Source: a bacterium
GTDB lineage: Bacteria; Patescibacteriota; UBA1384; XYA2-FULL-43-10; JAKAMI01
DNA length: 64,000 bases
Direction: 5' to 3'
Assembly: GCA_021812945.1 (NCBI GenBank)
Contig: JAKAMI010000002.1
Coordinates: 1,047 to 65,046 of the forward strand
The position numbers were made by a program, and so were the translations under genes. Positions 3,288 to 57,761 of the stretch are shown here, one piece after another (position 1 is the first letter of the stretch; each line of letters opens with the position of its first letter). The notes under the pieces are model-generated. The model ran no database searches. It was given only the letters and a program-made list of their open reading frames with translations, and had not been told where the DNA came from.

Positions 3288-3389
3288 GAACGTCCCTCCA
3301 TGTGCGAGCTTGGTCTGTCTAATTCTAAAATAGATAATATTATATGCACTGTCTAGACCTCGAAGCTATAATCTGTTATTTTGGAGGAT

Positions 3390-4856
3390 ATGAAAGAGAT
3401 TAAAATATTGGCCATAGAAACAAGTTGCGATGAAACCTGCGCAGCCGTTATCATGGCTGCCTCCTCGCGAAAGTACAAAAACTACAAAAGTACAAACATT
3501 GGAGAATGCCCGGTCGTTTTGTCGAATGTGGTGAGTTCGCAGATCGACCTGCACGCAAAAACCGGCGGCATCGTGCCGGAGGTGGCGAGTCGAGCGCATA
3601 TAGAGGTGATCGTCCCTGTTATTCGCGAAGCGCTCATAATAGCAAACCCTAAACTCGAAATTCTAAACTCTAAAAAAATTCAAAAATCTAAAAATAAGAT
3701 CAGCGCTGTGTTAGAGAACAATTTAGTAATTCAGCAATACAGCAATGAAATTTCGGAAATGCTTTCCGAAATTACCCACATCGCCGTGACTTCCGGGCCG
3801 GGGTTGGTCGGGGCGCTGTTGGTAGGGTTTAACACGGCCAAAACATTGGCGTATTCGCTGAATATTCCCATCGTGCCAATTAACCATATTGAGGGACACA
3901 TTTACTCGGCGATGGCCTCTGTGCCTGTCATTGCTAGGGCCGGTGTTTCGGCCCGTGGCAATCTAGCAAAGGAGATTGCCAGGTCGCCCCTCCTCGCAAT
4001 GACAAAGGGAGGGGTCAACTTCCCCATCTTGGCTTTGACAGTCTCGGGTGGTCATACTTCGCTTACCATAATGAAAGACCATGGAGTCTATGAAAACATC
4101 GGCCACACCATAGATGATGCAGCGGGCGAGGCATTTGATAAAGTGGCCAAGTTATTGGGACTAGGCTACCCGGGAGGACCGGCTGTTTCTAAACTCGCTG
4201 AAGAGTTTAGAAACAGAATAATCAATAATCAAGAGACAATAACCAAACAAATTCCAAATTCTAAATCTCAAAATCTCAAACCGGACTTCCGGACTTCCGG
4301 ACTTTCGGACTCGGGACTTGTATTTCCCCGTCCGATGCTCAATTCGGGAAACTTTAACTTTTCTTTCTCAGGACTCAAAACCGCGGTTCTAAATATAGTC
4401 CATAGTCTAAAAGTCCAAGAGTCCAAAGGTGAAAATTCGAAGACTTTAGGACTTCCGAACTTTCGGACTCAGGACTGGCGACCGGAGGTCGCCTTCGCTT
4501 TTGAAGAGGCGGTGGTGGATGTGCTGGCGACCAAGACGATGAGAGCGGTACTTAAATACAAACCGAAAACCGTGGTTCTAGCCGGCGGGGTGGCGGCGAA
4601 TAATCGATTGAGATCAGAACTACAGGGAAGGATTGAGACATATAATCACGGTCATCCTGAACTTGTTTCAGGATCCCATGGTAGACTGGAGGATTCTTCG
4701 GCTGCGCCTCAGAATAATGTGTCGTTGTTGATGCCTCCTCCGGAAATGTGTGGGGACAATGCGGCCATGATCGGACTGGCGGCGTACTACCACATTTTCC
4801 GCGGAGAAACTCCAAAATGGCACGAAATAAGTCTTGATGCCAATGCAAAACTGTAA
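3390..4856 (+). CDS. tsaD: tRNA N6-adenosine threonylcarbamoyltransferase TsaD (Kae1/Gcp family), about 150 aa longer than usual because of repeat insertions
   Basis: MKEIKILAIETSCDETCAAV N-terminus and GPGLVGALLVG motifs. An SD (ttggaggat) precedes the ATG at 3390; the ORF track starts at an upstream TTG. Inserts: [72 protein letters not shown]. Confidence 0.85.
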   Translation: MKEIKILAIETSCDETCAAVIMAASSRKYKNYKSTNIGECPVVLSNVVSSQIDLHAKTGGIVPEVASRAHIEVIVPVIREALIIANPKLEILNSKKIQKSKNKISAVLENNLVIQQYSNEISEMLSEITHIAVTSGPGLVGALLVGFNTAKTLAYSLNIPIVPINHIEGHIYSAMASVPVIARAGVSARGNLAKEIARSPLLAMTKGGVNFPILALTVSGGHTSLTIMKDHGVYENIGHTIDDAAGEAFDKVAKLLGLGYPGGPAVSKLAEEFRNRIINNQETITKQIPNSKSQNLKPDFRTSGLSDSGLVFPRPMLNSGNFNFSFSGLKTAVLNIVHSLKVQESKGENSKTLGLPNFRTQDWRPEVAFAFEEAVVDVLATKTMRAVLKYKPKTVVLAGGVAANNRLRSELQGRIETYNHGHPELVSGSHGRLEDSSAAPQNNVSLLMPPPEMCGDNAAMIGLAAYYHIFRGETPKWHEISLDANAKL

Positions 4857-8283: not shown

Positions 8284-8293
8284 CAATAAAATG

Positions 8294-10072: not shown

Positions 10073-10110
10073 CAAAGACAGTCTTCGCTGCCTTGGAAGA
10101 CTGTCTTTTG
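10073..10110 (+). terminator. Intrinsic terminator hairpin (aagacagtcttc family)
   Basis: aaagacagtcttc gctgccttg gaagactgtcttttg directly after the DedA stop. Confidence 0.6.
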
Positions 10111-10130: not shown

Positions 10131-11171
10131 CTAGGGCTGCGGAGAAGCAGGGGGCTGATTGGTATTACCGGAAGGTTGGGCAGGAGTAGGGTTAGCTCTA
10201 TCATCGGTGGCGGGAGTATCAAAGGTGTAGTTGGGATGAGAGGTTGGCCGGTCGGTAGTCGGTTGTCCGTTGTCGGTTGCCGGTAAAGCAGATCGGGAGT
10301 TATCGGTATTGGGTGACGGGATCGGGGCGGGGTTTGAGTCTACCGGAGCGGCGAGCGTGTCTGGCGTCTGGAGAGTAGTTTGATCCGGGATCGGCGTGGT
10401 TTTGACAGGAGTAGCATTGAGACCGGCAGTATTCTGTCCGGACATGTCCGGAGCTTGGGTAACGGGAGCGACAAATTGGTCGAAGGTCATAGGTTGTTTG
10501 TCGGAAGATTGGTTATCGGTAATCGGTAGACTGTTATCGGGAGCGGAGCCTGGCACCGGTGGGGTTACCGGCTCGACTGGTTTGGGTTCCGTTTCGACAG
10601 TCGATTCTGCTGCGGGAGTCGGGATTGGCTCGGATGCTATGGGTGATTTGTCTGGAGCAGGCTCAGCGGTAGCCGGAGGCTCATCGCCATCGAATATCGA
10701 CTTGGGCTGGCCGGTAGCGGCCGGTACGGAGGCGGTATCGTCGTCGAAATCGGAGAAAAGATCATCGGCCGGAGTGGTGGTCGGTTCATCGATAGGTTTG
10801 TTGTCGGTTGTCGGTTGTCGGTTGTCAGTAGGGGTATCAGTTGGAGTCAAATCATCGATTTTTGGTGCCGGTGTTTCCGGTTTCGTTTCGTCGGGCTCCG
10901 TGTGTTTAATCGGTTCGGGTTTGACCGGGACGAGATCATCCTTAACATCGTCCTTTTTCTCGTCCGGCTTGGGTTCGGGCATGGCGGCCGGTAAAACGGC
11001 ATCGCCGGTCAATTTTTCCAAATGATTGACACCGACAACCACGGCAGCCGGCGTGCCGTTCCTGGTCAGAACATACATTTGGTCGGTATTATCGACCTCG
11101 TCGATAATCTTATTGAAGCTATCTCGCGCCTCGGTTACCGGTATGATCTTGTCTACATCTACCTGAAGCAT
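10131..11171 (-). CDS. Phd/YefM-like antitoxin domain fused to an approximately 270 aa Pro/Thr/Asp-rich disordered tail
   Basis: The ATG at 11171 has a GGAGG SD. N-terminus MLQVDVDKIIPVTEARDSFNKIIDEV...QMYVLTRNGTPAAVVVGVNHLEKL matches the YefM/Phd fold. The remainder is low complexity with ggttgtc heptamer repeats (DNRQPTTDNKP). No adjacent toxin gene. Confidence 0.55.
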   Translation of the reverse strand: MLQVDVDKIIPVTEARDSFNKIIDEVDNTDQMYVLTRNGTPAAVVVGVNHLEKLTGDAVLPAAMPEPKPDEKKDDVKDDLVPVKPEPIKHTEPDETKPETPAPKIDDLTPTDTPTDNRQPTTDNKPIDEPTTTPADDLFSDFDDDTASVPAATGQPKSIFDGDEPPATAEPAPDKSPIASEPIPTPAAESTVETEPKPVEPVTPPVPGSAPDNSLPITDNQSSDKQPMTFDQFVAPVTQAPDMSGQNTAGLNATPVKTTPIPDQTTLQTPDTLAAPVDSNPAPIPSPNTDNSRSALPATDNGQPTTDRPTSHPNYTFDTPATDDRANPTPAQPSGNTNQPPASPQP

Positions 11172-11436
11172 AAGCCCCTCCAAAAAATTACGCAGTAATT
11201 TTTTGTCCCGCGTATCCGCCAAGGGCGGAGAAGTGGGACAAGTCAAAATATTATTAATCTAAAAGAAGAAAGAAGTAGGTAATTATCTGCTTGCTCAGCT
11301 CTCCTGAATTTCTAGGCGCTTTTTGAGATCGTTGTCTCAAGCGCTTGCGACCGTCGAAATTCAGTAAAGCCTCGCCGGCTTCGTGAAGTGTCACCCGATA
11401 ATTCAATTCTAATACAAATAAAAAGTTTAAGCAAAA

Positions 11437-12456
11437 TTAACGCTTTTCCAAAACCTCGCCCAGGGCTTCCTGCCAGGGGCGCATGGTGAGGCCGTATTTA
11501 TTCAACTTGGCTTTGGTGAGGTAGGAGTAGGCCGGGCGTTTGGCGGGGGTGGGGTACTCGGCGGTGGCGATAGGTTTGAGACCTATTTTAACCTTCGACT
11601 GTTTAAAAATTTCCTTGGCAAAATCATACCAAGAAGCTTCGCCCTCGCCGGTGGCGTGGTAGATACCGTAGGGAAGAGGGGCATTGCTTGATTGTTTCAT
11701 CCTGCTCCGCTCTTCTGGAGCTATGAGGGACACGGTTGCTTCATTGTTGTCATCCTGAACTTGTTTCAGGATCTCTGCGTTTGAATTTTGGGACCCTGAA
11801 ACAAGTTCAGGATAACGGTTTCGGAAGATAATTTCAGCAATCACCCCAACCAGGTCGCCGGTGTAGGTGGGGGAGCCGATTTGGTCGCTGACGACCGAGA
11901 TTGAATCGCGTTCTTTGGCCAGTCTCAGCATCGTCTCAACGAAATTCGAGCCAGGATGACCCTGTGGCAACTCGCCGTAAAGCCAGGCGGTGCGTATAAT
12001 ATAATACTTGTCGCAGACTGCCTGAATCGCTTTTTCGCCTTCCAACTTGGTTTGGCCGTAGAAGTTGACCGGATCGGTCGGATCGTCCTCATTTATTGGG
12101 ACGTTACCGGTACCCGGGAAGACGTAATCGGTCGAAATATACAACAACGTCGTATCTTTTTCGGCGGCGATTTCAGCCAGGTTTTTGGTTCCGACGGCAT
12201 TCACTTTATAGCAAAGTTCCCGACCCTCACCCTCGGCCTTGTCGACCTGGGTATAAGCGGCGGCGTGAATAATGAAGTCGGGCTTTTCTCTTGACAAAAC
12301 CCGCTCAATCATCGTTTTGTCGGTAATATCCATCTCCTCGGAGTCAGTGAGTATTAGTTGGTAGTCAGTCGTCGGTTGTCGGTTGTCAGGGACCTGAAGT
12401 CGTTCGATCAATTTGTTCCCGAGCTGGCCCTTGGCGCCGGTGATTAGAATTTTCAT
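11437..12456 (-). CDS. rfbD: dTDP-4-dehydrorhamnose reductase (RmlD) carrying two in-frame repeat insertions
   Basis: MKILITGAKGQLG Rossmann start at the ATG 12456, with an SD supplied by the upstream palindromic element. Inserts are VPDNRQPTTDYQL (ggttgtc repeats) and a roughly 100 nt double gtcatcctgaacttgtttcaggat palindrome encoding [23 protein letters not shown]. Confidence 0.8.
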   Translation of the reverse strand: MKILITGAKGQLGNKLIERLQVPDNRQPTTDYQLILTDSEEMDITDKTMIERVLSREKPDFIIHAAAYTQVDKAEGEGRELCYKVNAVGTKNLAEIAAEKDTTLLYISTDYVFPGTGNVPINEDDPTDPVNFYGQTKLEGEKAIQAVCDKYYIIRTAWLYGELPQGHPGSNFVETMLRLAKERDSISVVSDQIGSPTYTGDLVGVIAEIIFRNRYPELVSGSQNSNAEILKQVQDDNNEATVSLIAPEERSRMKQSSNAPLPYGIYHATGEGEASWYDFAKEIFKQSKVKIGLKPIATAEYPTPAKRPAYSYLTKAKLNKYGLTMRPWQEALGEVLEKR

Positions 12457-12461
12457 AAATG

Positions 12462-12553
12462 CTCCTTCGCAAATATACAAATCAAGCGAAAGTACAAATG
12501 GGCGTAGCGTTCTATTTGTACTTTTGTAAAATTTGTAGATTTGCGAAGGGGAG
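12462..12553. repeat. Family-A palindromic element (CCTTCGCGAATCTACAAAT..AAAGTACAAAT-loop-ATTTGTACTTTT..ATTTGTAGATTCGCGAAGG), copy 1, in the rfbD leader
   Basis: About 90 nt imperfect palindrome. Its gcgaaggag end forms the rfbD SD. Confidence 0.7.
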
Positions 12554-12560
12554 AAGCTTT

Positions 12561-13274
12561 TCAATCCTGAAAGAGAACTTCAATGTAAGCTTTCGCTTCG
12601 AGCTGTTCTTCGAAGCTGTTTTCCAGTTCCAAGCTGGTGTACTGCGGCAGATATTTGATGTAGTTTTTAACGTAATCAAACTCATTCAGGCTAGTAAAGC
12701 CGTGACGGTTGTAATGAGTTTCATGGCCGGCGTCGAACTCTGATGTTTTTAAAACTTTAGTAATGGCAGAGATATGGGCACAACCGATAGGATATTTTTT
12801 CAGCAATTCGGTGAAATTATCATAGGCGGTTAGGTTCTGCAGAACGCCATAATCGTGATAATGAGAAAGATCGAAACAAATACCGGCCGATTCTCGAACC
12901 ATCTGTTCGTAATTATCAGGCATAGAGCCACCGGTATTCTCAATATAGATTCGGTTTTGATATTCGGGCAAATTCTTTATTGCTTCAGCCGAACGTTTGG
13001 TCGGGTGGAGATTGAAAAGCCGGCAGTCCCATTTTTGGCTTAAATAATCGAGCTCGTCTTTGCCCATATCCTGCTCGCGCAAATGGGTGTGACGGATTTT
13101 TTTGAGCTTACTTTTTTCCAAAAGATCATAAAGCTCTCGGCGCTCGGGTTTCTCAAGAGCGGTGGCGAACAACGAAATCTGCTCGATATTAAATTTGTTT
13201 ATTTCCTTAACCTTGGCGCGCCAGTCGGAGCCCCAAGTGGTAGTCAGGCCAAGAAGTAGAGTGTGTTTAGGCAT
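12561..13274 (-). CDS. Hypothetical protein inside the rml cluster (possible TIM-barrel sugar isomerase/epimerase-like)
   Basis: 237 aa ORF between rfbB and rfbD; no firm motif match. Confidence 0.35.
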   Translation of the reverse strand: MPKHTLLLGLTTTWGSDWRAKVKEINKFNIEQISLFATALEKPERRELYDLLEKSKLKKIRHTHLREQDMGKDELDYLSQKWDCRLFNLHPTKRSAEAIKNLPEYQNRIYIENTGGSMPDNYEQMVRESAGICFDLSHYHDYGVLQNLTAYDNFTELLKKYPIGCAHISAITKVLKTSEFDAGHETHYNRHGFTSLNEFDYVKNYIKYLPQYTSLELENSFEEQLEAKAYIEVLFQD

Positions 13275-14940: not shown

Positions 14941-15051
14941 CTCCTTCGCAAATCTACAAATCCGGCAAAAATACAAATAATGCGCAACGTTCAATTTGTA
15001 TTTTCGTAAAATTTGCCGTGCCTGCCGGCAGGCAGGTAGATTCGCGAGGGG
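14941..15051. repeat. Family-A palindromic element, copy 2 (variant with an internal gccgtgcctgccggcaggcaggtag palindrome)
   Basis: Between the rfbC start and the rfbA stop. Confidence 0.7.
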
Positions 15052-15911: not shown

Positions 15912-16021
15912 TTCCTTCGCGAATCTACAAATCTAGCAAAAGTACAAATAGCGAATAGCGTCCAATTTGTATTTTCGTAAAATTTGCCGTGCCTGCCGGC
16001 AGGCAGGTAGATTCGCGAGGG
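15912..16021. repeat. Family-A palindromic element, copy 3, in the divergent rfbA / flippase intergenic region
   Basis: Same consensus as copies 1 and 2. Confidence 0.7.
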
Positions 16022-20148: not shown

Positions 20149-20236
20149 CCCCTCGCAAATCTACAAATTTTACAAAAATACAAATTGCACGTCGCGCGTT
20201 ATTTGTACTTTTGCTAGATTTGTAGATTCGCGAAGG
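20149..20236. repeat. Family-A palindromic element, copy 4, immediately upstream of ugd (provides its aaggag SD)
   Basis: cccctcgcaaatctacaaattttacaaaaatacaaat...atttgtacttttgctagatttgtagattcgcgaaggag. Confidence 0.7.
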
Positions 20237-20252
20237 AGAGAGGAGTTTTGTC

Positions 20253-21548: not shown

Positions 21549-21639
21549 CCCCTTCGCGAATCTACAAATTTTACGAAAATACGAATTGGACACTACTCGC
21601 TATTTGTACTTTTGCTAGATTTGTAGATTTGCGGAGGGG
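21549..21639. repeat. Family-A palindromic element, copy 5, upstream of the GT2 gene
   Basis: ccccttcgcgaatctacaaattttacgaaaatacgaat...atttgtacttttgctagatttgtagatttgcggagggg. Confidence 0.7.
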
Positions 21640-21667
21640 AGATACTTAGCCAGTTCATAGGAAGAAA

Positions 21668-43522: not shown

Positions 43523-44089
43523 ATGGGTGGTCACCAGGATCTGATAGTCTATCAGCAAGCGGTGCTGATTTTTGATCTCAACGTGCAGTTTTGCCGTCGG
43601 TTTTTGGACCCCATCAAAGATCGTCGAACTATCGAGCAAATGGAGCAAGCGTCTCGCAGTAGCAAGCAGAATATCGTTGAAGGCTCTCTTGGAAAAAGCC
43701 TGAAAATGAACATAAAGTTGACGGGAGTTTCACGGGCGTCGTACGGAGAATTGCTAGAAGACTACAAGGATTTTTTGCGGATACGGAATCTGAAGCTATG
43801 GCCCAAAGAAGATGAAAGAGTTCGGGAAATTCGAAGCATGCGTGTCCAAACCAATAAGGCAAATGAGTCTAATGCGGCCGATTGGTCCAATTGGACAAAT
43901 GATGCGGAAAGATTCGCCAATTTAATGGTAACTTTGATCTCTAAAGAGAACTATCTTTTGGATTGTCTTTTACGGTCTTTGGAAAACAAGTTTGTAACCG
44001 AGGGCGGTTGTGGTGAAAATTTGTTTAAGAAAAGGCTAGAGGAAAGGAATAGGACCAATAGGACAAATTGGTCCAATCGGGTCAATTAG
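43523..44089 (+). CDS. Four-helix-bundle protein (23S rRNA intervening-sequence protein family, TIGR02436/PF05635-like) with C-terminal repeat-derived extension
   Basis: LIVYQQAVLIFDLNVQFCRRF...NIVEGSLGKSLKMNIKLTGVSRASYGELLEDY matches the family. The tail contains ccaattggtc-repeat-encoded NWSNWTND/TNRTNWSNR. Confidence 0.6.
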   Translation: MGGHQDLIVYQQAVLIFDLNVQFCRRFLDPIKDRRTIEQMEQASRSSKQNIVEGSLGKSLKMNIKLTGVSRASYGELLEDYKDFLRIRNLKLWPKEDERVREIRSMRVQTNKANESNAADWSNWTNDAERFANLMVTLISKENYLLDCLLRSLENKFVTEGGCGENLFKKRLEERNRTNRTNWSNRVN

Positions 44090-44111: not shown

Positions 44112-46187
44112 ATGGGTATTTTGGAGCAACTTAATCCTGAACAACGTGAAGCTGTGACCACCACCAGTGGTCCAGTTTTAGTGCTCGCGGGTGCAGGCAG
44201 CGGCAAAACTAGAGCGTTGACCTACCGGATTGCTTATCTGATTCAAGAAAAACGGGTTTCACCGTATTCGATACTAGCCGTGACCTTCACTAATAAGGCA
44301 GCGCACGAAATGAGTAACCGGGTTGCCCGCCTGCTCGCGTTTTCGTTGAATAAGACCAATTGGCCAAATGAGTCTAATTTGACCAATAAACTTCCTTGGC
44401 TGGGGACGTTTCACTCCATTTGCGTCAAAATTCTAAGACGCGAAGCCAACCACCTGGGTTACGAGCGCAGCTTCACTATCTACGACGATCAAGACCAGCA
44501 AGCGGTCATCAAAAAGATCTTACGAGATCTGCAGCTCGACCCTAAGAAAACTTCACCATCATCGATATCTTACTTTATCTCCGGGGCCAAAGCTGAACTT
44601 ATGACAGCGGCCGAATATACCAAGTATGCAACTTATGGCTTTCAGAAAATTGTCAGTGAGGTCTATTTCGCTTATGAAAAAGCTCTGAAGCGAGCCGAGG
44701 CAATGGACTTTGACGACCTAATTCTAAACTGCGTGCGCCTATTTCGTGAGTTCCCGGAGCTGTTAGAAAAATATCAGCGTCAGTTTCAATATATTTTAAT
44801 CGACGAGTACCAGGACACCAACCACGCCCAATACGTTTGGGCTAAATTGCTGGCTTCAGACCATCACAATATTTGTGTGGTGGGCGATGATTTTCAGTCG
44901 ATCTATTCTTGGCGCGGGGCGAATTTTCGCAACATTTTAGACTTCGGCAAAGATTATCCGGAAGCTAAAATTATCAAAATGGAGCAGAACTATCGCTCGA
45001 CCAAATCAATTCTGGGTGCGGCGCAGGGGGTGATAGAAAAGAATAAGGATCGAACCGACAAGAAACTTTGGACCGAGAACAAAGAGGGGGTGCCGGTAAC
45101 GGTTTTCGAGGCGGGGAGCGACCGTGACGAAGCGGACTTTGTCACTCGCGAAATTCGCGCTCTGAGAATGAACAGCCTAAATTACTCAGATTTTGCCATT
45201 TTATACCGTACTAATGCTCAGTCGCGGCAGTTTGAGGAGACTTTTATCCGCTACGGCATCCCGTACCAAATTATCGGCGGAGTCAGCTTCTACCAACGGC
45301 GCGAAGTGAAGGATGTCATCGCTTACCTGCGCTACATTCACAATCCGCGAGACCTGGTCTCGTTGGAGCGGATTATAAATGTACCGGCTCGGGGGATTGG
45401 GCCAAAAACAGCGGAGCTGCTTTTGGAAGTCAAAAGTCAAAAGTCAAAAGTCAAAAGTATGGAAGAGCTACCAGATAAGGTCAGAAAGTTTGAGGAGATG
45501 ATTACCAGTTTGCGTGAATACTATCAGAAACATTCCATAGTCGAGCTAATAGATACCTTGGCTCGAATGACGGGGTATAAGGATTATCTGCTGGACGGGA
45601 CGCCGGAGGGAGAGGCGAGGTGGGAAAACATTGAGGAGCTGATGAACATTGCGGCGGCACAAGCCGCCCCCTACGAAAATACAAAAGAAGGCACGAAAGT
45701 ACGAAAGTACAAATCTGGAGACGAACCGGTACCTCAGAATACCATTCCAGCCTCTCGCTCCGTCATTCCTGCGAAAGCAGGAATCCAGACTGGATCCCAG
45801 ATCGAGTCTGGGATGACGAGTAGCCGCGAGACGGATAATCAACTCGAGGAGTTTCTTGAGCGGGTTAGTTTGTATCAAGACTCGGAAAAATTGGACAAAG
45901 ACCGCGATGCGGTGGTTTTAATGACTTTGCACGCAGCCAAGGGCTTGGAATACGATACGGTTTTCATCGCCGGTCTGGAGGAAGGTATTTTCCCGCACTC
46001 CAGAAGCTTGACCGAAAAAGATCAGTTGGAGGAGGAGAGACGGCTTTGTTACGTCGGCATGACCCGGGCACAGAAAAGGCTATACCTGCTATATGCCCGC
46101 CAGCGGCTTTTTCATGGCAACATAATGGCGTCTCTCCCCTCAAGATTTTTGGGGGAAATACCAGCAGAGTTCACAGACATTCTGTGA
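44112..46187 (+). CDS. uvrD: ATP-dependent DNA helicase UvrD/PcrA with repeat insertions
   Basis: LNPEQREAV, AGAGSGKTRALTYR, TFTNKAAHEM, ILIDEYQDTN, VGDDFQSIYSWRGA. Inserts NKTNWPNESNLTNKLP, EVKSQKSKVKSMEE, YENTKEGTKVRKYKSGDEPVPQNTIPASRSVIPAKAGIQTGSQIESGMTSS. Confidence 0.85.
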   Translation: MGILEQLNPEQREAVTTTSGPVLVLAGAGSGKTRALTYRIAYLIQEKRVSPYSILAVTFTNKAAHEMSNRVARLLAFSLNKTNWPNESNLTNKLPWLGTFHSICVKILRREANHLGYERSFTIYDDQDQQAVIKKILRDLQLDPKKTSPSSISYFISGAKAELMTAAEYTKYATYGFQKIVSEVYFAYEKALKRAEAMDFDDLILNCVRLFREFPELLEKYQRQFQYILIDEYQDTNHAQYVWAKLLASDHHNICVVGDDFQSIYSWRGANFRNILDFGKDYPEAKIIKMEQNYRSTKSILGAAQGVIEKNKDRTDKKLWTENKEGVPVTVFEAGSDRDEADFVTREIRALRMNSLNYSDFAILYRTNAQSRQFEETFIRYGIPYQIIGGVSFYQRREVKDVIAYLRYIHNPRDLVSLERIINVPARGIGPKTAELLLEVKSQKSKVKSMEELPDKVRKFEEMITSLREYYQKHSIVELIDTLARMTGYKDYLLDGTPEGEARWENIEELMNIAAAQAAPYENTKEGTKVRKYKSGDEPVPQNTIPASRSVIPAKAGIQTGSQIESGMTSSRETDNQLEEFLERVSLYQDSEKLDKDRDAVVLMTLHAAKGLEYDTVFIAGLEEGIFPHSRSLTEKDQLEEERRLCYVGMTRAQKRLYLLYARQRLFHGNIMASLPSRFLGEIPAEFTDIL

Positions 46188-47315: not shown

Positions 47316-47392
47316 CGATGTTGTCATTCCCGCTTTAGGCGTGCGAATCCACTAATAAATTAGGAATCGGGTAGATTCCCGCCTTCGCGGGA

Positions 47393-48499
47393 ATGACGGA
47401 AAAAGAGGTAGGGATAATCAAAATAAAAGTTACTGAAATCAAACAATTTCTGAGCGAAAATCAGACTTGGGCCAAGAAGAGTTTTGGCCAGCATTTTTTG
47501 GTTGACGAGAATGTTTTAAGCAAAATTGTGGCCACGGCCGAATTATCAAAATCAGATCGAGTCTTGGAGATCGGTCCGGGCTTGGGGGTCTTAACCGATC
47601 AACTAATTGAACGTGCAGGTGAAGTTGTAGCTATCGAAGCAGACCGGTTCTTAGCCAGTTGTCTGGCTAAGAAATATCAAACCCTACAACACGTCATTCC
47701 AGTGAAAGCTGGAATCCAGGGATTAGAAAAAACTGGATCCCAGATCAAATCTGGGATGACAGAGAAAGATGACTTTGGACTTTCAACTTTCAACTTTCAA
47801 CTAATTGAAGGTGACGCTTTGAAAGTCATCGACAGCCTGGAATTTAAAAGGGGATTTCGATCGAAACCTTATAAAGTGATCGCCAATATTCCATATTCGA
47901 TAACATCAAAATTATTAAGGCTGCTACTGGAAGAATATCAACCAACCTCAATCACTTTTTTGGTGCAAAAAGAGGTGGCGGAGAGGGTTTGCGCCAAGCC
48001 CGGTCGGATGAGCCTTTTATCATTATCCGTCCAATACTTCGGCACCCCGAAGATCATCGCCACCGTTCCGGCCGGAGCTTTCTGGCCACAACCAAAAGTT
48101 GAGTCAGCAATTTTGCACATCAAGTTGACCACGATACACACACCTGCCTGCCGGCAGGCAGGGAAATCAATTCACAGAGAGGACACAGAAAATTTAACCC
48201 TGCCCACCTCCGAGGAGTCAGAGCCCACCTCGGAGGTGTTTACGGGCAAAAATAATGAAACAATGAAACAATCTAGCAATGAGCTATTCAAACTGGCCAG
48301 AATCGGTTTAGGTTCCAAGCGGAAAATGCTGGCGCACAATTTATCGACCGGCTTAAGTCTTCCGCGGGAAGAAATTGTTGATATAATAAAATCGGTGGGA
48401 CTTAAGGAAACAGTCAGAGCGCAGGAGCTAAGCGTTAAGGAGTGGGAAGAATTATCACGCTCCCTCGCGAATCTACAAATTTGGCAAAAATACAAATAA
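47393..48499 (+). CDS. rsmA: 16S rRNA (adenine1518/1519-N6)-dimethyltransferase RsmA/KsgA with two composite repeat insertions
   Basis: SFGQHFLVDENVL...VLEIGPGLGVLT...IANIPYSITS. Inserts VIPVKAGIQGLEKTGSQIKSGMTEKDDFGLSTFNFQL and HTPACRQAGKSIHREDTENLTLPTSEESEPTSEVFTGKNNETMKQSSNE. Confidence 0.85.
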   Translation: MTEKEVGIIKIKVTEIKQFLSENQTWAKKSFGQHFLVDENVLSKIVATAELSKSDRVLEIGPGLGVLTDQLIERAGEVVAIEADRFLASCLAKKYQTLQHVIPVKAGIQGLEKTGSQIKSGMTEKDDFGLSTFNFQLIEGDALKVIDSLEFKRGFRSKPYKVIANIPYSITSKLLRLLLEEYQPTSITFLVQKEVAERVCAKPGRMSLLSLSVQYFGTPKIIATVPAGAFWPQPKVESAILHIKLTTIHTPACRQAGKSIHREDTENLTLPTSEESEPTSEVFTGKNNETMKQSSNELFKLARIGLGSKRKMLAHNLSTGLSLPREEIVDIIKSVGLKETVRAQELSVKEWEELSRSLANLQIWQKYK

Positions 48500-48548
48500 C
48501 ACTTCGCGTTCAATTTGTATTTTCGTAAGATTTGTAGATTCGCTAAGG
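48461..48548. repeat. Family-A palindromic element, copy 6, spanning the rsmA 3' end and the NRAMP leader
   Basis: tccctcgcgaatctacaaatttggcaaaaatacaaat...atttgtattttcgtaagatttgtagattcgctaagg. Confidence 0.7.
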
Positions 48549-48574
48549 ATATAGAGGTCGCTAAGGAGGGGATT

Positions 48575-50105: not shown

Positions 50106-50777
50106 CCCACGCTTCAGCGTGTTAGACAGATAGTTCTCTTTCAACCCGTAATCCGAGGCGTACGGCCTCGGACTTCGGTTCGTATGGCCAGGGCGGTGAC
50201 CCTAGACGAGTTCGGTGAGGGGTTTCCCCAGGGTGAATTCCATGAGCTCCCTCAGTCTGACGAAGTGCAGCCTGGTCGCACCGTCCTCGATGCATCGGTG
50301 ACAGGCATTCCCGGCTCCCGGAAGTCCGTGGCAAAAGAGCCGATGGGTCAAGGCACAGAAGATTTCAGTGAACGGCTCGGATGCCGAAAAGCTGCTTGTT
50401 AGTGCCGGTGCGACTGGCACATTGTCTCGAGCGAGGGCTTCGGGGTGTGTGACCCACTGCCCGCTTGCTGCGATCAGTTCCGGGGCAACAATCTTCACGA
50501 AGGGTAGAATGTCTTGCAACCACGATGAGTGGCGAGACACTGATGACGCATTGGGATGTTGCTGGTGTGTGGCTGTATTGGGCAAAGGTGATCCCTCCCG
50601 GATCGGCGATATGGGGTACTTAAGAATAATGATAAAGAGTTTAGTTGACCAATACAACCCCTATTTTTGGATGATTGCTCAAAAGCCAATTTCTGCTATA
50701 GTAAAAATAATGAAAATTGATCAATCTATAGGGTAGATTCCCGCTTTCGCGGGAATGACAACAAACGCGTAAATCGT

Positions 50778-53480: not shown

Positions 53481-53837
53481 ATGAAAAAGACTGAATTTGA
53501 ACAAATTCTTGAGGTGATATCGGATTTCCGCCAAATGGTCGCGGAAAAGTTTGAGGAACAAGATGCTAGATTTGAGAAAATTGATGCTAGATTCGAGAAA
53601 ATTGATGCTAGATTCGAGAAAATCGATTCTAGATTTGAAGACATTAACGACAGGTTCGACCAACAAGATGCCAAGATCAACAAGCTTTCTAAAGATATGA
53701 ATTGGGTCAAAGACATTCTGGATAGTCATACAGGCATGTTAAGGAGACTTGACGATGAACGACTGGCCGGTGTTTACCGAACGGATAGAATCGAAAAGCA
53801 AGTCGCTGATATGAAAAAACAGCTAAAACTGGCCTAG
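53481..53837 (+). CDS. Coiled-coil protein with four tandem 21-nt (7-aa DARFEKI) repeats
   Basis: gatgctagattcgagaaaatt x4 at about 53563-53650. Confidence 0.45.
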   Translation: MKKTEFEQILEVISDFRQMVAEKFEEQDARFEKIDARFEKIDARFEKIDSRFEDINDRFDQQDAKINKLSKDMNWVKDILDSHTGMLRRLDDERLAGVYRTDRIEKQVADMKKQLKLA

Positions 53838-53909
53838 TTGTTGCTGTGTTTGGTGATTTCCGCTTAGACAGCGGTTTTTTGTTTGGGTGATATTTGCTAT
53901 CATTTAGCC

Positions 53910-56282
53910 ATGACCGCTCTCAAACTTGATTCACCCATCCAATACCTAAAAGGTGTGGGGCCGAAGCTGGCTGAGAAATTAAAAAGGCTGGAAATAGAAA
54001 CTCCGGCCGATCTTTTGTACCATCTGCCGCGGACCTACATTGACTACTCGCAAACGGTCCCGATCAAATCCACCCGCATCGGCGATCTTGTCGTTATTAA
54101 AGGAAAAATATCGGATCTCAGCATCAAACGCACGCCGCGGAAATGGATGGCCATCGTCGAGTTTTTGGTATCGGATCATTCAGGCTCGATCAAAGTTGTC
54201 TACTTCAACCAGCCCTACCTCAAAGACACCTTTAAAAACGGCGAGGAACTCTATTTTTACGGTAAAATTAACTATGACTATTCCGGCTCGATTAAGTCTC
54301 TCAACAGTCCGGACTTCAGCCGCGAGCCGAAGATCGTACCCATTTACCCGGAAACAAAAAACGTCAACAGTAAATACCTAAACAAGTTAGTAGTCGGTTG
54401 TCTGTCGTCAGTTGACAGCGCCAGAGAATATTTGCCCGAGGAAATAAAAACTCAAGCTAAGCTGGTGAATATCGAGCAAGCCCTGAGGTTTCTCCACCAA
54501 CCGGCCAAAATGGCCGAGGTTGGGTCGGGGCGCCGGCGCCTAGCCTTTGACGAACTCTATTTAACGGCTCTGCAAACGCAAATTTTTCGACAACAACGTC
54601 GGGAGCAAAAGGCGGTACGGGTCAAGATTGATAACAAAGAGCTGGTAAGTTTTGTCGACCAGTTGCCGTTTAAACTAACCGCTGCCCAAAAAAGGGCGGC
54701 TTGGCAAATCTTGCTTGACCTAAGGGGTCAAACTAAGTCCGGAGTCCAAGAGTCCAAGAGTCCAAGAGGGAAGACTTCCGGACTTCCGGACTTTAGGACT
54801 TTGGACTGGATTCCTCCGATGAATCGGCTGCTCAATGGTGATGTCGGTAGCGGCAAGACGGTGGTGGCGGCTATGGCAGCCTATGCGGTCATAAAGGCCG
54901 GTTACCGAGTCATCGTCATGGCGCCAACCGAAGTATTGGCTTTTCAACATTACAACACCTTTCAAGAAATTTTGGCTAAATACGACATCAGTGTTGGCCT
55001 GGCGACAAGTTCTAGAAAGGAAACATCACTTTCTGTCATTCCTGTGAAAGCAGGAATCCAGACGAAGAAAACTACTGGATCCCGGATCAAGTCCGGGATG
55101 ACGGACAAAAACAATAAAACAATGAAGCAATTGAACCATGTTTTTGAGACATGTGACCTCCTGGTTGGTACCCATGCGGTACTAGAAGATACTTTTAATC
55201 ATGAAAAGGTGGCGCTGGTGGTGGTTGATGAACAACACCGGTTCGGAGTCGAGCAGAGGGCAAAGATACAAAGAATGACAAGCTCCAGGAACGTCATTCC
55301 AGCCCCTCATCCTGTCATTCCAGCGAAAGCTGGAATCCAGAAATCATCAAAAGCCACTGGATCCCGGATCAAGTCCGGGATGACAAATGAGGACAAAGGA
55401 ATCCAAGCTCACTTCCTTTCGATGACCGCCACACCAATACCAAGAACGCTGCAGCTGACGCTTTACGGCGACTTGGATGTTTCGGTCATCGATGAGATGC
55501 CGAAAGGGCGTAAAGAAATCGAGACTAAGGTTTTTGCCGATCGTGATCGTGAAAAAGCTTATGACCTCATTAGGGATCAGGTAAAGTTGGGGAGACAAGT
55601 GTTCATTGTCTGCCCCTTGATCGAGGAAAATCAGGAGCAAGGTGGGCAAAGACAGTCTTTGCAAAAGGAGCAAAGACTGGCTTTACCCGAATTAGATCGG
55701 AAAACAGTGGTAGCGGAACAGAAAAGACTCAAAGAACAGGTATTTCCGGACTTAAAGATTGGGCTAATGCACGGGAAACTCAAGCCCAAGGAGAAAGAAG
55801 TAGTGATGAATGAATTTACCAGTCGCAAACTAGATATATTAGTCAGTACCTCGGTGGTCGAGGTAGGTGTCGATGTGCCGAATGCCAGTGTGATGATGGT
55901 CGAAAATGCCGAAAGATTCGGCCTAGCTCAGTTACACCAGTTCCGCGGCCGGGTCGGTAGGGCGGAGCATCAATCTTACTGTTTATTAATGTCATCCAGC
56001 CCTCGTCCGGAAAACATCAAACGCTTGAAAGCTATGGAAACGCATGCTTCCGGGTTTAAGTTGGCGGAGATTGATTTGGAGCTTCGTGGACCGGGAGTTA
56101 TTTACGGCAAAGAGCAATCGGGCTTCGGTGACTTGAGGCTAGACTGGGTTTCTGATATATTTCTACTAGAGGAAGCGCGTGAAGCGGCCAAGAAAACACT
56201 GACCTTGAATCCGAGTCTGTCGTCCTGGCCGGGACTGCGAGAAAAACTTGGCGAGAAGTTCGGAGAAGCACATTTAGAATAA
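53910..56282 (+). CDS. recG: ATP-dependent DNA helicase RecG with three composite repeat insertions
   Basis: LKGVGPKLAEKL (HhH), wedge domain, GDVGSGKTVVA, DEQHRFGV, helicase motifs. Inserts KSGVQESKSPRGKTSGLPDFRTLDW, SVIPVKAGIQTKKTTGSRIKSGMTDKNNKTMKQLNH and VIPAPHPVIPAKAGIQKSSKATGSRIKSGMTNEDKG. Confidence 0.85.
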   Translation: MTALKLDSPIQYLKGVGPKLAEKLKRLEIETPADLLYHLPRTYIDYSQTVPIKSTRIGDLVVIKGKISDLSIKRTPRKWMAIVEFLVSDHSGSIKVVYFNQPYLKDTFKNGEELYFYGKINYDYSGSIKSLNSPDFSREPKIVPIYPETKNVNSKYLNKLVVGCLSSVDSAREYLPEEIKTQAKLVNIEQALRFLHQPAKMAEVGSGRRRLAFDELYLTALQTQIFRQQRREQKAVRVKIDNKELVSFVDQLPFKLTAAQKRAAWQILLDLRGQTKSGVQESKSPRGKTSGLPDFRTLDWIPPMNRLLNGDVGSGKTVVAAMAAYAVIKAGYRVIVMAPTEVLAFQHYNTFQEILAKYDISVGLATSSRKETSLSVIPVKAGIQTKKTTGSRIKSGMTDKNNKTMKQLNHVFETCDLLVGTHAVLEDTFNHEKVALVVVDEQHRFGVEQRAKIQRMTSSRNVIPAPHPVIPAKAGIQKSSKATGSRIKSGMTNEDKGIQAHFLSMTATPIPRTLQLTLYGDLDVSVIDEMPKGRKEIETKVFADRDREKAYDLIRDQVKLGRQVFIVCPLIEENQEQGGQRQSLQKEQRLALPELDRKTVVAEQKRLKEQVFPDLKIGLMHGKLKPKEKEVVMNEFTSRKLDILVSTSVVEVGVDVPNASVMMVENAERFGLAQLHQFRGRVGRAEHQSYCLLMSSSPRPENIKRLKAMETHASGFKLAEIDLELRGPGVIYGKEQSGFGDLRLDWVSDIFLLEEAREAAKKTLTLNPSLSSWPGLREKLGEKFGEAHLE

Positions 56283-56441
56283 TTCATTTGAGTAGGCCAA
56301 CACAGACATCATTTACAGATTAAGCACAGATAGAGAAAACATTTTAACAAGTCATCCTGAACTTGTTTCAGGATCCCGGATTTCTTTGATGGGATTCCGG
56401 ATCAAGTCTGGAATGATGGACGGATCTGGGGAGATTTCGGA

Positions 56442-57257: not shown

Positions 57258-57761
57258 ATGTATGTAAAACGAAATCCTCTGGGCTACAAAAATCTTCGTA
57301 CTTGGCAACAGGCCAATGAAATATTTGATCTAACGGAAAGATACGTCCAAACTCTGCCGAAGTTTCACCCCAAAACCGGTCAGAAAATGGCCGATACCGC
57401 TGACCATATGCTCCGCTCGGCACGGTCGCAGGTACGAAACATTGAAGAGGGATATTCTCGCTCCGAGACTAAGCAATACATTGACTTCTTGGGATTCTCC
57501 AAAGGCTCGGGTGAGGAGCTTTTGGGAGACTTCGAGAAATGTCGCAAAGATGGGCTGGGTGATATCGAATTGGCCGATCGAGCCATTTTTTTGTCCAAGG
57601 GGGAAGGGAAAATGCTCCACAACCAGATGGAGGCTTTGCAACAGAAACGATTGAAGGACGGGGCGATGTCTGTAAATGAAAGATACAAATTGGCCAAGGA
57701 AGAAGATGTAAGGAGGGATGAGGAGTTTGAAAAGAAAGTCAGAGAGATCCTTGGGAAGTGA
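57258..57761 (+). CDS. Four-helix-bundle protein (23S rRNA IVS protein family), second paralog
   Basis: LRTWQQANEIFDLTERYVQ...RNIEEGYSRSETKQYIDFLGFSKGSGEEL; SD agggagggaaaATG; 108 nt downstream of tRNA-Leu. Confidence 0.6.
   Translation: MYVKRNPLGYKNLRTWQQANEIFDLTERYVQTLPKFHPKTGQKMADTADHMLRSARSQVRNIEEGYSRSETKQYIDFLGFSKGSGEELLGDFEKCRKDGLGDIELADRAIFLSKGEGKMLHNQMEALQQKRLKDGAMSVNERYKLAKEEDVRRDEEFEKKVREILGK

What the first reader, a model, noticed from the sequence alone, without database searches (positions are those of the whole stretch)
54735..55400. recG carries three separate composite insertions totalling about 110 codons
Insert 1 (KSGVQESKSPRGKTSGLPDFRTLDW) combines the agtccaaaag and ggacttccgg modules exactly as in tsaD. 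Inserts 2 and 3 are GTCATTCC two-hairpin elements, the first followed by the aacaatgaa module. RecG remains otherwise intact with all helicase motifs. This is a striking case of an essential repair enzyme tolerating extensive selfish-DNA load.
Basis: seen in the sequence. Interest (0 to 1): 0.6.

Follow-up and report, generated by a model that had tools for sequence, protein, structure and literature searches.

The report
Palindromic repeat DNA inside a recG gene
A DNA-repair helicase gene (recG) of a tiny-genome Patescibacteria bacterium carries four short hairpin-forming repeat elements inserted in frame in loops between its structural elements, a known kind of "selfish DNA inside genes" (as in Rickettsia) that here turns up in a new bacterial group and repeatedly at the same spots.

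Summary
Against its closest syntenic ortholog (680 aa), this recG (53910-56282) has three in-frame extras of 27, 29 and 35 codons, 91 in all rather than about 110.

Inserts 2 and 3 are inverted dimers of CGTC-tagged REP stem-loops. They match the published CGTC-1/-2 definition (the family of Neisseria dRS3 and Rickettsia RPE-6/-4). Insert 1 is an 81-nt hairpin built of 8-nt tandem units, 85% identical to one in tsaD. The "aacaatgaa" module is another octamer array.

All of these elements recur in other genes and in spacers of the window. The gene looks alive:
- All columns invariant across 120 homologs are kept.
- dN/dS against the ortholog is about 0.09.
- An AlphaFold model matches RecG structure 1GM5, and the inserts are its only low-confidence internal loops apart from the 738-751 loop.

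Other Patescibacteria RecGs carry unrelated inserts, some of them REPs in other frames or orientation, at the same loops. The same REP dimer lies in frame in real genes in 11 of 31 Patescibacteria loci, against 0 of 84 loci from other phyla.

Verdict: tolerated mobile palindromes, a new member of a known kind (intragenic REP/RPE). Translation and enzyme activity are inferred, not shown.

The parts
53910..56282 (+). recG coding sequence. It is 790 aa from ATG 53910; the mechanical ORF starts at TTG 53883 and gives 799 aa.
   Evidence: Pfam RecG_wedge/DEAD/Helicase_C/RecG_dom3_C. 1GM5 E 3.8e-120. Foldseek top hit 1gm5_A with TM 0.63/0.68. Terminator-like hairpin at 53860-53889.
54729..54809 (+). 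Insert 1: an 81-nt imperfect palindrome. The left arm is (AGTCCAAG)n and the right arm is (ACTTCCGG/ACTTTRGG)n. It encodes QTKSGVQESKSPRGKTSGLPDFRTLDW and lies between the helix that follows the F-x-L-T-x-x-Q motif and strand beta1, 8 residues before the P-loop.
   Evidence: Absent from ortholog L001. The DNA fold is a long hairpin, z -2.4. 85% identical to tsaD 4391-4478. pLDDT <50 at aa 287-299.
55035..55102 (+). Insert 2 core: an inverted dimer of two CGTC-type REP stem-loops. Unit A is (T)GTC-ATTCCTGT-GAAA-GCAGGAAT-CCAG. A 12-nt spacer follows. Unit B, read on the other strand, is CGTC-ATCCCGGA-CTTGA-TCCGGGAT-CCAG. It encodes VIPVKAGIQTKKTTGSRIKSGMT.
   Evidence: Folds as a three-way junction, z -4.5. 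Absent from L001. pLDDT <50 at aa 385-400 and 406-408.
55104..55139 (+). The 'aacaatgaa' module: an 8-nt tandem array AACAATRA/CAATGAAG encoding DKNNKTMKQLNH. Part of it is modelled as the start of the helix before strand beta4.
   Evidence: Four loci in the window (7183, 40539, 48251, 55110), 7 matches against 0.02 expected. Family D15. Helix 411-423 in the model.
55293..55313 (+). Insert 3 leader: a partial REP-like unit, GTCATTCCAGCCCCTCATCCT (VIPAPHP). A similar leader precedes the copy in the UvrD-like gene.
   Evidence: Family D8.
55314..55384 (+). Insert 3 core: a second CGTC REP inverted dimer with a 15-nt spacer. It encodes VIPAKAGIQKSSKATGSRIKSGMT and lies between the helix after motif II (DEQHRFGV) and the strand of motif III.
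   Evidence: Fold z -5.4. Absent from L001. pLDDT <50 at aa 474-503.
55644..55688 (+). It encodes GQRQSLQKEQRLALP and lies after the 'CPLIEE' strand of the second RecA-like domain.
   Evidence: Inverted repeat I1. Fold z -6.1. The family AAAGACAGTCTT gives 14 matches against 0.29 expected, with intergenic clusters at 8290-8480 and 10073-10109. pLDDT <50 at aa 584-599. The ortholog has a different module at this site.
56351..56418 (+). Intergenic REP dimer just downstream of the recG stop codon: GTCATCCTGAACTTGTTTCAGGATCCC ... GGGATTCCGGATCAAGTCTGGAATGAT.
   Evidence: (D6, D19). L242 has a REP dimer in the same recG-comEA spacer.
45762..45817 (+). The same REP dimer, in frame in the UvrD/PcrA-like helicase gene 44112-46187 (VIPAKAGIQTGSQIESGMT).
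47693..47760 (+). The same REP dimer, in frame in rsmA (47393-48499). It is absent from the L001 ortholog.
4397..4476 (+). The tsaD copy of the insert-1 type octamer palindrome, in the same frame (SLKVQESKGENSKTLGLPNFRTQDW).
47323..47397 (-). Intergenic REP dimer variant whose tail is CTAC (GTAG on the complement) instead of CCAG.

Best explanation
recG of this Patescibacteria genome has been colonised, at four separate loops, by short non-autonomous palindromic repeat elements from at least three families that are scattered through the same genome.

Two of the inserts are inverted dimers of CGTC-tagged REP stem-loops, an architecture like that of REPINs. The elements probably spread as single-stranded DNA hairpins through a trans-acting enzyme that has not been identified.

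Insertions land anywhere. Only those survive that (i) add a multiple of three bases, (ii) read through in a stop-free frame, and (iii) fall in connections between the strands and helices of the RecA-like domains.

The surviving inserts are most likely transcribed and translated into flexible loops, basic and rich in Gly, Ser and Lys in the case of the REP dimers, leaving a working helicase. The composites (REP dimer + octamer array; partial unit + dimer) arise because a permissive loop can be hit again and short tandem units can expand there.

Shown here:
- The identity and family of the repeats.
- Presence/absence against the ortholog.
- Hairpin covariation.
- Intact host-gene signatures.
- Loop placement in a model.
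- Recurrence at the same loops in other lineages.

Inferred, not shown:
- The mobilisation mechanism.
- Translation of the inserts.
- Their neutrality.
For: 1. Empty sites. The syntenic ortholog L001/P0002 lacks inserts 1-3 and carries a different module at site 4.

2. Multicopy and dispersed. There are 16 REP-like units in the 64 kb window, 10 inside genes (TsaD, RmlD-like, UvrD-like, RsmA, RecG x4) and 6 intergenic. That puts 38% of units in about 14% of the sequence, as expected for insertion followed by purifying selection. L001 has the same dimer in an intergenic spacer.

3. Hairpins matter.
- DNA folds have z-scores of -4.5, -5.4 and -6.1.
- Across 306 units the free stem pair takes all four complementary forms: TCCCGC/GCGGGA 54, TCCGGC/GCCGGA 51, TCCTGC/GCAGGA 12, TCCAGC/GCTGGA 9.

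4. The anatomy fits the published definition of CGTC REPs. That paper also reports intragenic REP dimers encoding 20-30 aa, often in DNA-repair genes (PMC3733652).

5. The host gene looks functional.
- All invariant columns of a 120-sequence alignment are kept.
- pN is 0.15 against pS 0.69, so dN/dS is about 0.09.
- The AF2 model has pLDDT 81.8 and pTM 0.77. Low confidence inside the chain is confined to the four inserts and the 738-751 loop, and all flanking strands and helices are present.
- 1gm5_A is the top structural match, E 5.7e-47.

6. Permissive loops. Among 121 RecGs, extras of 10 aa or more occur at site 1 in 24, site 2 in 33, site 3 in 34 and site 4 in 16, with unrelated sequences.

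7. Independent hits confirmed at DNA level. L241 has a REP unit on the opposite strand at site 2. L242 has a REP dimer in another frame at site 3.

8. Frames. The dimer is stop-free in 4 of 6 frames. Patescibacteria genes elsewhere use several of them (YchF, Tgt, pseudouridine synthase, DinB, LigA, LigD, ValS and others).

9. Independent assemblies give the same inserts.
Against: - No transcript, protein or activity data exist, so translation and function are inferred.
- No transposase or RAYT was found in 28 window ORFs scanned with Pfam, and no target-site duplication is visible. The mobilisation step is therefore unsupported here.
- All four genic copies of this dimer in the window use the same orientation and frame. 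The chance of that is about 0.016 if the four open frames were equally likely.
- Their stems are nearly perfect. This could mean very recent spread, selection for a benign or basic peptide, or a function of the hairpin itself.
- Insert 2 starts only about 5 residues after nearly invariant K379 and about 10 after the conserved G-L-x-T segment. Some effect on DNA binding cannot be excluded.
- dS is saturated (about 1.9), and dN/dS averages over both lineages. A very recent loss of function would not show.
Confidence: 0.8

Rival explanations
1. The inserts are kept because they do something. Either the DNA or mRNA hairpins act in regulation, stability or protein binding, or the basic peptides add nucleic-acid contacts to RecG, UvrD and RsmA. 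On this view they are domesticated elements, not merely tolerated ones.
For: - The stems are almost perfect and vary only by compensatory changes.
- All four genic copies in the window share one frame, which encodes K/R/G/S-rich peptides with net charge about +4 to +7.
- Hosts are enriched in nucleic-acid enzymes. Three of 11 independent Patescibacteria hosts are DinB, LigA and LigD, p about 0.015 for an assumed 5% background. PMC3733652 reports the same tendency.
- The dimer is conserved across several phyla.
Against: - The inserts are absent from the closest ortholog, whose RecG is otherwise 77% identical.
- Other lineages fill the same loops with unrelated sequences, frames and orientations.
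- The same elements sit in intergenic DNA and in unrelated membrane proteins.
- The model shows no structure in the inserts.
Confidence: 0.12
2. recG is a recently inactivated pseudogene that has become a dumping ground for repeats.
For: Four insertions in one gene is a heavy load. recG is dispensable in model bacteria (general knowledge). dS is saturated, so a recent relaxation of selection would be invisible.
Against: - The reading frame of 790 codons is uninterrupted, and every insert is a multiple of three and stop-free.
- All invariant columns of 120 homologs are retained.
- dN/dS is about 0.09.
- Many other Patescibacteria RecGs carry inserts at the same loops.
- Presumably indispensable genes (TsaD, a class I tRNA synthetase, RsmA) in the same window carry the same modules.
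Confidence: 0.03
3. The inserts are not part of the mature protein. They are removed as introns or inteins, or are skipped by the ribosome, as with the translational bypass elements of yeast mitochondria.
For: They form stable hairpins in the mRNA strand as well. Mobile GC-rich palindromes that are bypassed are known elsewhere (general knowledge).
Against: - All inserts keep the frame and lack stops, which bypassing or splicing would not require.
- At 45-105 nt they are too small for self-splicing introns or inteins.
- Rfam gives no hit at gathering threshold and only chance-level sub-threshold hits.
- No intein domain appears in Pfam.
Confidence: 0.02
4. The inserts are an assembly or binning artefact: repeat-induced chimeric joins in a metagenome-assembled genome.
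For: The REP dimer is nearly identical in many phyla, so cross-organism mis-joins at repeats are conceivable in short-read assemblies.
Against: - Both flanks of every insert continue the same RecG in frame.
- The same protein comes from three contig sets, and one differs by a single residue.
- Analogous intragenic REPs occur in independent assemblies of other RecGs.
Confidence: 0.01

Closest known systems
CGTC-tagged REPs (families CGTC-1/-2 of Di Nocera, De Gregorio and Rocco 2013, PMC3733652). These include Neisseria dRS3 and Rickettsia conorii RPE-6/RPE-4.
   Same: - A (C/T)GTC tag, an 8-bp stem beginning A-T/T-A, a 4- or 5-nt loop and a CCA-type tail.
- Mostly inverted dimers, with compensatory stem variation.
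- Copies inside genes that encode 20-30 extra residues, often in DNA replication or repair genes and sometimes twice in one gene.
   Different: - That paper lists five phyla, and Patescibacteria is not among them.
- recG is not named among the hosts in the sections read.
- Here four palindromes of three families share one gene.
- In the loci sampled from the genome scan, about a third of the Patescibacteria copies are intragenic, against none in other phyla.
Rickettsia palindromic elements (RPE-1 type; Ogata et al. 2000, as summarised in PMC2229807).
   Same: Palindromic repeats fused in frame into conserved protein genes of a small-genome bacterium. The host genes stay open. One RPE-bearing enzyme (Gmk) was shown to be translated and active, so the inserts are regarded as neutral or slightly deleterious.
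   Different: RPEs are 105-146 bp and specific to Rickettsia. The elements here are 45-81 nt, belong to other sequence families and sit in an unrelated phylum. No expression data exist here.
REPIN-RAYT systems (Bertels and Rainey 2011, PMC3116915 and PMC3337134).
   Same: Two REPs in inverted orientation separated by a short spacer, able to fold as one larger hairpin. The copies form a multicopy population within a genome. The intergenic copies carry GTAG on the complement next to the stem.
   Different: REPINs are extragenic and are tied to a single-copy RAYT gene flanked by REPs. No such gene was seen in the window, and for CGTC repeats none is known (PMC3733652). The RecG copies are intragenic and end in CCAG.
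Intragenic MITEs of enterobacteria and Neisseria (ERIC, Correia/NEMIS, YPAL; review PMC2229807).
   Same: Small non-autonomous inverted-repeat elements that contain open reading frames and are occasionally fused to protein genes.
   Different: Those elements are 100-200 bp, usually have TA target duplications and terminal inverted repeats of a known transposon type, and are rarely inside conserved enzyme cores.

Membership tests
CGTC-tagged REP superfamily (PMC3733652) | Unpaired terminal tetranucleotide CGTC (accepted variants TGTC, CCTC). | tested here: met
   Unit A is preceded by T in RecG inserts 2 and 3 (TGTC) and by C in the UvrD and RsmA copies (CGTC). Unit B reads CGTC on the complement in insert 2 and TGTC in insert 3.
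CGTC-tagged REP superfamily (PMC3733652) | Stem of 8-9 bp whose first two pairs are A-T and T-A. | tested here: met
   ATTCCWGY/GCWGGAAT and ATCCCGGA/TCCGGGAT are both 8 bp. There is one G-T pair in insert 2 unit A.
CGTC-tagged REP superfamily (PMC3733652) | Loop of 4 nt (family 1) or 5 nt (families 2-4). | tested here: met
   GAAA in unit A and CTTGA in unit B. Over 306 units the loop counts are GAAA 89, GAAG 46 and CTTGA 119.
CGTC-tagged REP superfamily (PMC3733652) | Short unpaired tail close to CCA. | tested here: met
   ...GGAAT-CCAG and, on the complement...GGGAT-CCAG. Intergenic variants end in CTAC.
CGTC-tagged REP superfamily (PMC3733652) | Multicopy and dispersed, mostly as inverted dimers, with complementary stem changes between copies. 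| tested here: met
   16 units in 64 kb, mostly in dimers. All four complementary variants of the free stem pair are seen. More than 116 loci in public genomes hold the exact dimer pattern. The whole-genome copy number of this organism was not counted.
REPIN-RAYT system | Two inverted REPs with a spacer that fold into one larger hairpin. | tested here: met
   The minimum-energy fold pairs GTCAT with ATGAC and ATCCAG with CTGGAT around the two local hairpins.
REPIN-RAYT system | Cognate single-copy RAYT (Y1 HUH transposase) gene flanked by the REPs. | tested here: inconclusive
   No Y1_Tnp or other transposase domain was found in 28 window ORFs. Only 64 kb of the genome is available, and not every ORF was scanned.
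REPIN-RAYT system | Extragenic location. | tested here: not met
   Four units lie inside recG and six more inside other genes.
Rickettsia palindromic elements (RPE-1 type) | In-frame insertion in conserved protein genes with the reading frame preserved. | tested here: met
Rickettsia palindromic elements (RPE-1 type) | Element of about 105-146 bp of the Rickettsia-specific consensus. | tested here: not met
   The elements here are 45-81 nt (105 nt for the whole of insert 3) and belong to other sequence families.
Rickettsia palindromic elements (RPE-1 type) | The insert is transcribed and translated, and the host enzyme stays active. | not testable with these tools
   Needs RNA, protein or enzyme data.
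RecG helicase | Wedge domain plus two RecA-like domains with SF2 motifs I-VI and the TRG motif. | tested here: met
   Pfam. 1GM5 by sequence and by fold. The conserved GDVGSGKT, PTEVLA, DEQHRFGV, TATPIPRT, TSVVEVGVD, HQFRGRVGR and RGPG..G..QSG segments are all retained.
Intein or self-splicing intron | Hint/endonuclease domain, or a group I/II intron RNA fold. | tested here: not met
   No such Pfam domain. No Rfam hit at gathering threshold, and only chance-level hits at E<=1. The inserts are only 15-35 codons long.

The most novel reading that the evidence does not exclude
In Patescibacteria, REP-type palindromes are not just tolerated passengers but a main, ongoing source of new loop sequence in housekeeping proteins.

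The lineage lets the same cross-phylum REP dimer persist inside genes: about one third of the sampled copies, against none in other phyla. The intact hairpins and the bias toward DNA-repair and RNA-modifying enzymes may reflect a function of the hairpin or of its basic peptide. They may equally reflect a targeting mechanism linked to the single-stranded DNA that these very enzymes handle.
Probability: 0.15. Interest if true: 0.7.

Novelty: new member of a known kind. Interest (0 to 1): 0.4.

Why it matters
It extends intragenic REP/RPE-type selfish DNA to the Candidate Phyla Radiation, bacteria with very small and gene-dense genomes.

It shows that a conserved helicase has a small set of loops that are colonised again and again by unrelated palindromes. 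Those loops form a natural map of permissive insertion sites in RecG.

It has a practical side for annotation: length inflation and odd low-complexity loops in Patescibacteria proteins can come from repeat DNA.

The contrast of 11/31 intragenic copies in Patescibacteria against 0/84 elsewhere, for the same element, is a testable lead on how genome streamlining interacts with mobile DNA. It also bears on repeat insertion as a source of new protein sequence.

Tried and rejected
- Protein-database search with the insert-3 peptide, intended as a census of host proteins. The first query was too short. The 44-aa version found only two tiny hypothetical ORFs, so it was uninformative.
- Metagenome scan for the full insert-1 palindrome found nothing. 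The looser one-arm octamer pattern hit at least 120 contigs with GC from 25 to 70%, mostly outside long ORFs. The octamer array alone is therefore not diagnostic of any family.
- Search for a mobilising enzyme: 28 window ORFs were scanned with Pfam and no transposase or RAYT was found.
- Terminator and promoter scans inside recG found nothing within the gene.
- Rfam at gathering and at E<=1 gave only tRNAs and chance-level hits.
- Literature searches for intragenic REPs in CPR/Patescibacteria, and for the REP-encoded peptides, found no report in the held library.
- Candidate intragenic copies in non-Patescibacteria loci were rejected on inspection. They are long open frames in high-GC DNA, or the element lies upstream of a plausible start codon or signal peptide.
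- Target-site duplications were looked for by eye at filled and empty sites, and none was evident.
- Coordinates of the structure model were not available, so distances to the ATP site and to DNA in 1GM5 could not be computed.
Full report
**What is there**

The ORF 53883-56282 (+) is RecG.
- Pfam finds the wedge domain, DEAD, Helicase_C and the RecG C-terminal domain.
- The best solved relative is T. maritima RecG, 1GM5, at E 3.8e-120.
- A terminator-like hairpin at 53860-53889 overlaps the TTG start, so the ATG at 53910 (790 aa, as in the public annotation) is the more likely start.
- The HMMER alignment to 1GM5 breaks into four blocks. These leave query-only segments at aa 281-310, 379-423 and 463-503, plus an 18-residue gap inside the last block.

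**Comparison with orthologs**

The database search gave the organism as a Patescibacteria MAG. It also gave a closest ortholog, P0002 (680 aa), on a syntenic contig, L001: GT2 - VanW - recG - comEA. The window matches part of NCBI assembly GCA_027426595.1 at 99.99%.

Protein and DNA alignments show that P0002 lacks three segments:
- 27 codons (aa 283-309).
- 29 codons net (within aa 381-423).
- 35 codons (aa 471-505).

That is 91 codons, not about 110. At a fourth site (aa ~583-603) both genes are longer than the minimal homologs, but with unrelated sequences. Here the window has a 45-nt palindrome at 55644-55688. The same inserts occur in RecG sequences from three contig sets, one of which differs by a single residue, so they are not an assembly accident.

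**Anatomy of the inserts**

Inserts 2 and 3 each contain the same two-hairpin element: (T)GTC-ATTCCWGY-GAAA-GCWGGAAT-CCAG, a spacer of 12-15 nt, then ACTGG-ATCCCGGA-TCAAG-TCCGGGAT-GAC(R). The right half is the reverse complement of a second unit, CGTC-ATCCCGGA-CTTGA-TCCGGGAT-CCAG. The element is therefore an inverted dimer of two stem-loops with the tagged ends pointing outward. As single-stranded DNA it folds into a three-way junction, with z-scores of -4.5 and -5.4 against shuffles.

- Insert 3 is preceded by a 21-nt partial unit.
- Insert 2 is followed by an AACAATRA octamer array, which occurs at four loci in the window.
- Insert 1 is an 81-nt imperfect hairpin whose arms are 8-nt tandem units, (AGTCCAAG)n and (ACTTCCGG/ACTTTRGG)n, with z -2.4. 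It is 85% identical to an element in tsaD, in the same frame. Single arms occur in the FemAB-like and class I tRNA-synthetase genes.
- Insert 4 belongs to a fourth hairpin family, AAAGACAGTCTTC...GAAGACTGTCTTT. This family forms an intergenic cluster at 8290-8480 and a copy at 10073-10109, with 14 matches against 0.29 expected.

**What family inserts 2 and 3 belong to**

The anatomy of inserts 2 and 3 meets every sequence criterion that Di Nocera et al. (PMC3733652) give for CGTC-tagged REPs:
- A CGTC or TGTC tag.
- An 8-bp stem starting with AT.
- A loop of 4 nt (family 1) or 5 nt (family 2).
- A CCA tail.
- Mostly inverted dimers.

These repeats include Neisseria dRS3 and Rickettsia RPE-6/-4. 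That paper also reports REPs inside genes, frequently dimers encoding 20-30 residues. They are frequently in replication and repair genes (uvrA/B, uvrD/rep, recBCD, dnaE, polA, ligase), and sometimes occur twice in one gene. It lists five phyla for CGTC repeats, without Patescibacteria, and notes that no dedicated transposase is known.

These came from Alpha- and Gammaproteobacteria, Thermodesulfobacteriota, Bacteroidota and many Patescibacteria lineages. Over 306 units from these loci, the one stem pair left free by the search pattern takes all four complementary forms. This is direct covariation support for the hairpin.

**The host gene looks alive**

- The query keeps every column that is invariant in a 120-sequence RecG alignment, including the P-loop, DEQH, TATPIPR, motifs V and VI and the TRG segment.
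- Against the ortholog, pN is 0.15 and pS 0.69, giving dN/dS of about 0.09 with saturated dS.
- An AlphaFold2 model built on that alignment has mean pLDDT 81.8 and pTM 0.77.
- Inside the chain, confidence below 50 is confined to aa 287-299, 385-400/406-408, 474-503, 584-599 and the 738-751 loop. The first four are exactly the four inserts.
- The flanking elements (helix 267-281, strand 314-319, strands 371-381, helix 411-423, strand 443-449, helix 456-467, strand 510-515, strand 572-576) are all present.
- The model's best structural match is 1gm5_A, E 5.7e-47, TM 0.63/0.68.

Inserts 1 and 3 sit in helix-to-strand connections. By the general topology of RecA-like folds (inference), these lie on the side of the sheet away from the nucleotide site. 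Insert 2 follows strand beta3 and starts about five residues after nearly invariant K379. It is the insert most likely to touch DNA binding. I could not compute distances on the 1GM5 coordinates.

**The same loops are used repeatedly**

Among 121 RecGs, the segment lengths at the four sites range over 5-62, 9-70, 10-66 and 8-55 residues. Extras of 10 or more residues are found in 24, 33, 34 and 16 proteins respectively, with unrelated sequences. Several of these are recognisably REP translations.

At DNA level, the RecG of L241 carries a CGTC-1 unit on the opposite strand at site 2 (LDSRLRGNDT). The RecG of L242 carries a REP dimer in a different frame at site 3, plus an intergenic dimer in the recG-comEA spacer, as in the window at 56351-56418. 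These are independent colonisations of the same loops.

**Genome and phylum context**

- In the window, 16 REP-like units were found: 10 inside genes and 6 in the roughly 14% of sequence that is non-coding. That is the pattern expected from insertion followed by selection.
- The dimer is stop-free in four of six frames. All four genic copies in the window use the frame that encodes VIP[AV]KAGIQ...GS[RQ]I[KE]SGMT, while Patescibacteria genes elsewhere use other frames and the other strand.
- In the loci from the genome scan, 11 of 31 Patescibacteria copies lie in frame inside bona fide genes: YchF, Tgt, a pseudouridine synthase, DinB, a DHH protein, LigA, LigD, Wzy-like and PMT-like membrane proteins, and ValS.
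- None of the 84 copies from other phyla convincingly does. Fisher p is 1e-7, or 7e-5 if four doubtful cases are counted as intragenic.

**Mechanism**

The best-supported account has four steps.
1. These are non-autonomous palindromic repeats that multiply within the genome.
2. Insertions that keep the frame, avoid stops and fall in tolerant loops are retained.
3. The inserts are translated as flexible loops; those encoded by the REP dimers are basic.
4. Repeated hits and octamer expansion in the same loop build the composites.

The repeat identity, empty sites, covariation, gene integrity, loop placement in a model and recurrence are shown. The transposition step, translation and neutrality are inferred. 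The Rickettsia precedent, in which an RPE-bearing Gmk is translated and active (PMC2229807), makes translation plausible.

**Rivals**

- A functional role for the hairpins or peptides cannot be excluded. The supporting points are the perfect stems, the single frame, the basic peptides and the bias toward repair enzymes. It is weakened by absence of the inserts from the sister lineage and by the variety of sequences that fill the same loops.
- A pseudogene is unlikely, given the open frame, the retained invariant residues, the low dN/dS, and the same modules in tsaD and a tRNA synthetase gene.
- Removal by splicing, inteins or ribosomal bypass is unlikely. All inserts are in-frame and stop-free, are very short, and show no matching RNA or protein signatures.
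- Assembly artefact is excluded by the independent assemblies.

**Novelty and score**

Intragenic REPs and RPEs have been known since 2000 and 2013, including their liking for repair genes. The finding is therefore a new member of a known kind.

The following appear new, as far as the held literature shows:
- The host phylum.
- The load of four palindromes from three families in one helicase.
- The repeated use of the same RecG loops across lineages.
- The strong Patescibacteria-specific excess of intragenic copies of a cross-phylum REP dimer.

Interest is moderate, 0.4.

Noticed in passing
It is related to an intergenic hairpin family, AAAGACAGTCTTC...GAAGACTGTCTTT, at 8290-8480 and 10073-10109.
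   Followed up: yes
window 56351-56418; L242 2880-2961: An intergenic REP dimer sits directly after the recG stop codon, in the recG-comEA spacer. A distantly related Patescibacteria contig has a REP dimer in the same spacer.
   Followed up: partly
window 3381-4856 (tsaD), 4888-7377 (class I tRNA synthetase), 11437-12564 (RmlD-like), 44112-46187 (UvrD-like), 47393-48499 (rsmA), 1317-2354 (FemAB-like): Many housekeeping genes of the window are inflated by in-frame repeat modules. tsaD is 491 aa, with Pfam matches split into 3 stretches and a REP unit at 4651-4677. RmlD-like holds a REP dimer at 11749-11817. rsmA is 368 aa against 297 in the ortholog. Recurrent peptide modules include TKVQNYKS, NNETMKQ and ISNIKDQ.
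   Followed up: partly
window 12462-12554, 14942-15050, 15913-16021, 20149-20241, 21550-21642, 48461-48569: A family of 93-109-nt palindromic MITE-like elements (CCCYTCGCRAATCTACAAAT...ATTTGTAGATTYGCGAAGG), mostly between genes. Half-elements seem to supply the TKVQNYKS-type modules found inside genes.
   Followed up: no
loci L005-L120 (genome scan): The exact heterodimer (GAAA-loop unit plus CTTGA-loop unit) is conserved from Sphingomonas and Microbulbifer isolates to Desulfobacterales, Bacteroidota and many Patescibacteria. Copies inside real genes were seen only in Patescibacteria: 11/31 against 0/84.
   Followed up: partly
loci L121-L240 (metagenome scan): Tandem octamer arrays (AGTCCAAR)n occur in at least 120 metagenome contigs with GC from 25 to 70%, mostly outside long ORFs. 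A few have an inverted partner array (L227, L239), like insert 1.
   Followed up: partly
window 43523-44089 and 57258-57761: Two genes for four-helix-bundle '23S rRNA intervening sequence protein' family members (PF05635). One lies just upstream of the UvrD-like gene. The other lies downstream of recG-comEA-tRNA-Leu.
   Followed up: no
window 47323-47397 (-), 50733-50759 (-); L001 16879-16953: Intergenic copies of the REP unit end in CTAC (GTAG on the complement), while all intragenic copies end in CCAG. The unit thus carries a CGTC tag at one end and, when intergenic, a GTAG-like tag at the other.
   Followed up: no
window 53481-53837: A small ORF between the VanW-like gene and recG encodes a repetitive coiled-coil-like peptide (ARFEKIDARFEKIDARFEKIDSRFEDINDRF). 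It is absent from the syntenic ortholog contig L001 and has no significant Pfam family.
   Followed up: no
window 10131-11246 (-): A 371-aa ORF has only a 50-residue Phd/YefM antitoxin match. It also contains repeated GTTGTCGGTT-type units (family D13). It may be another repeat-inflated or mis-called gene.
   Followed up: no
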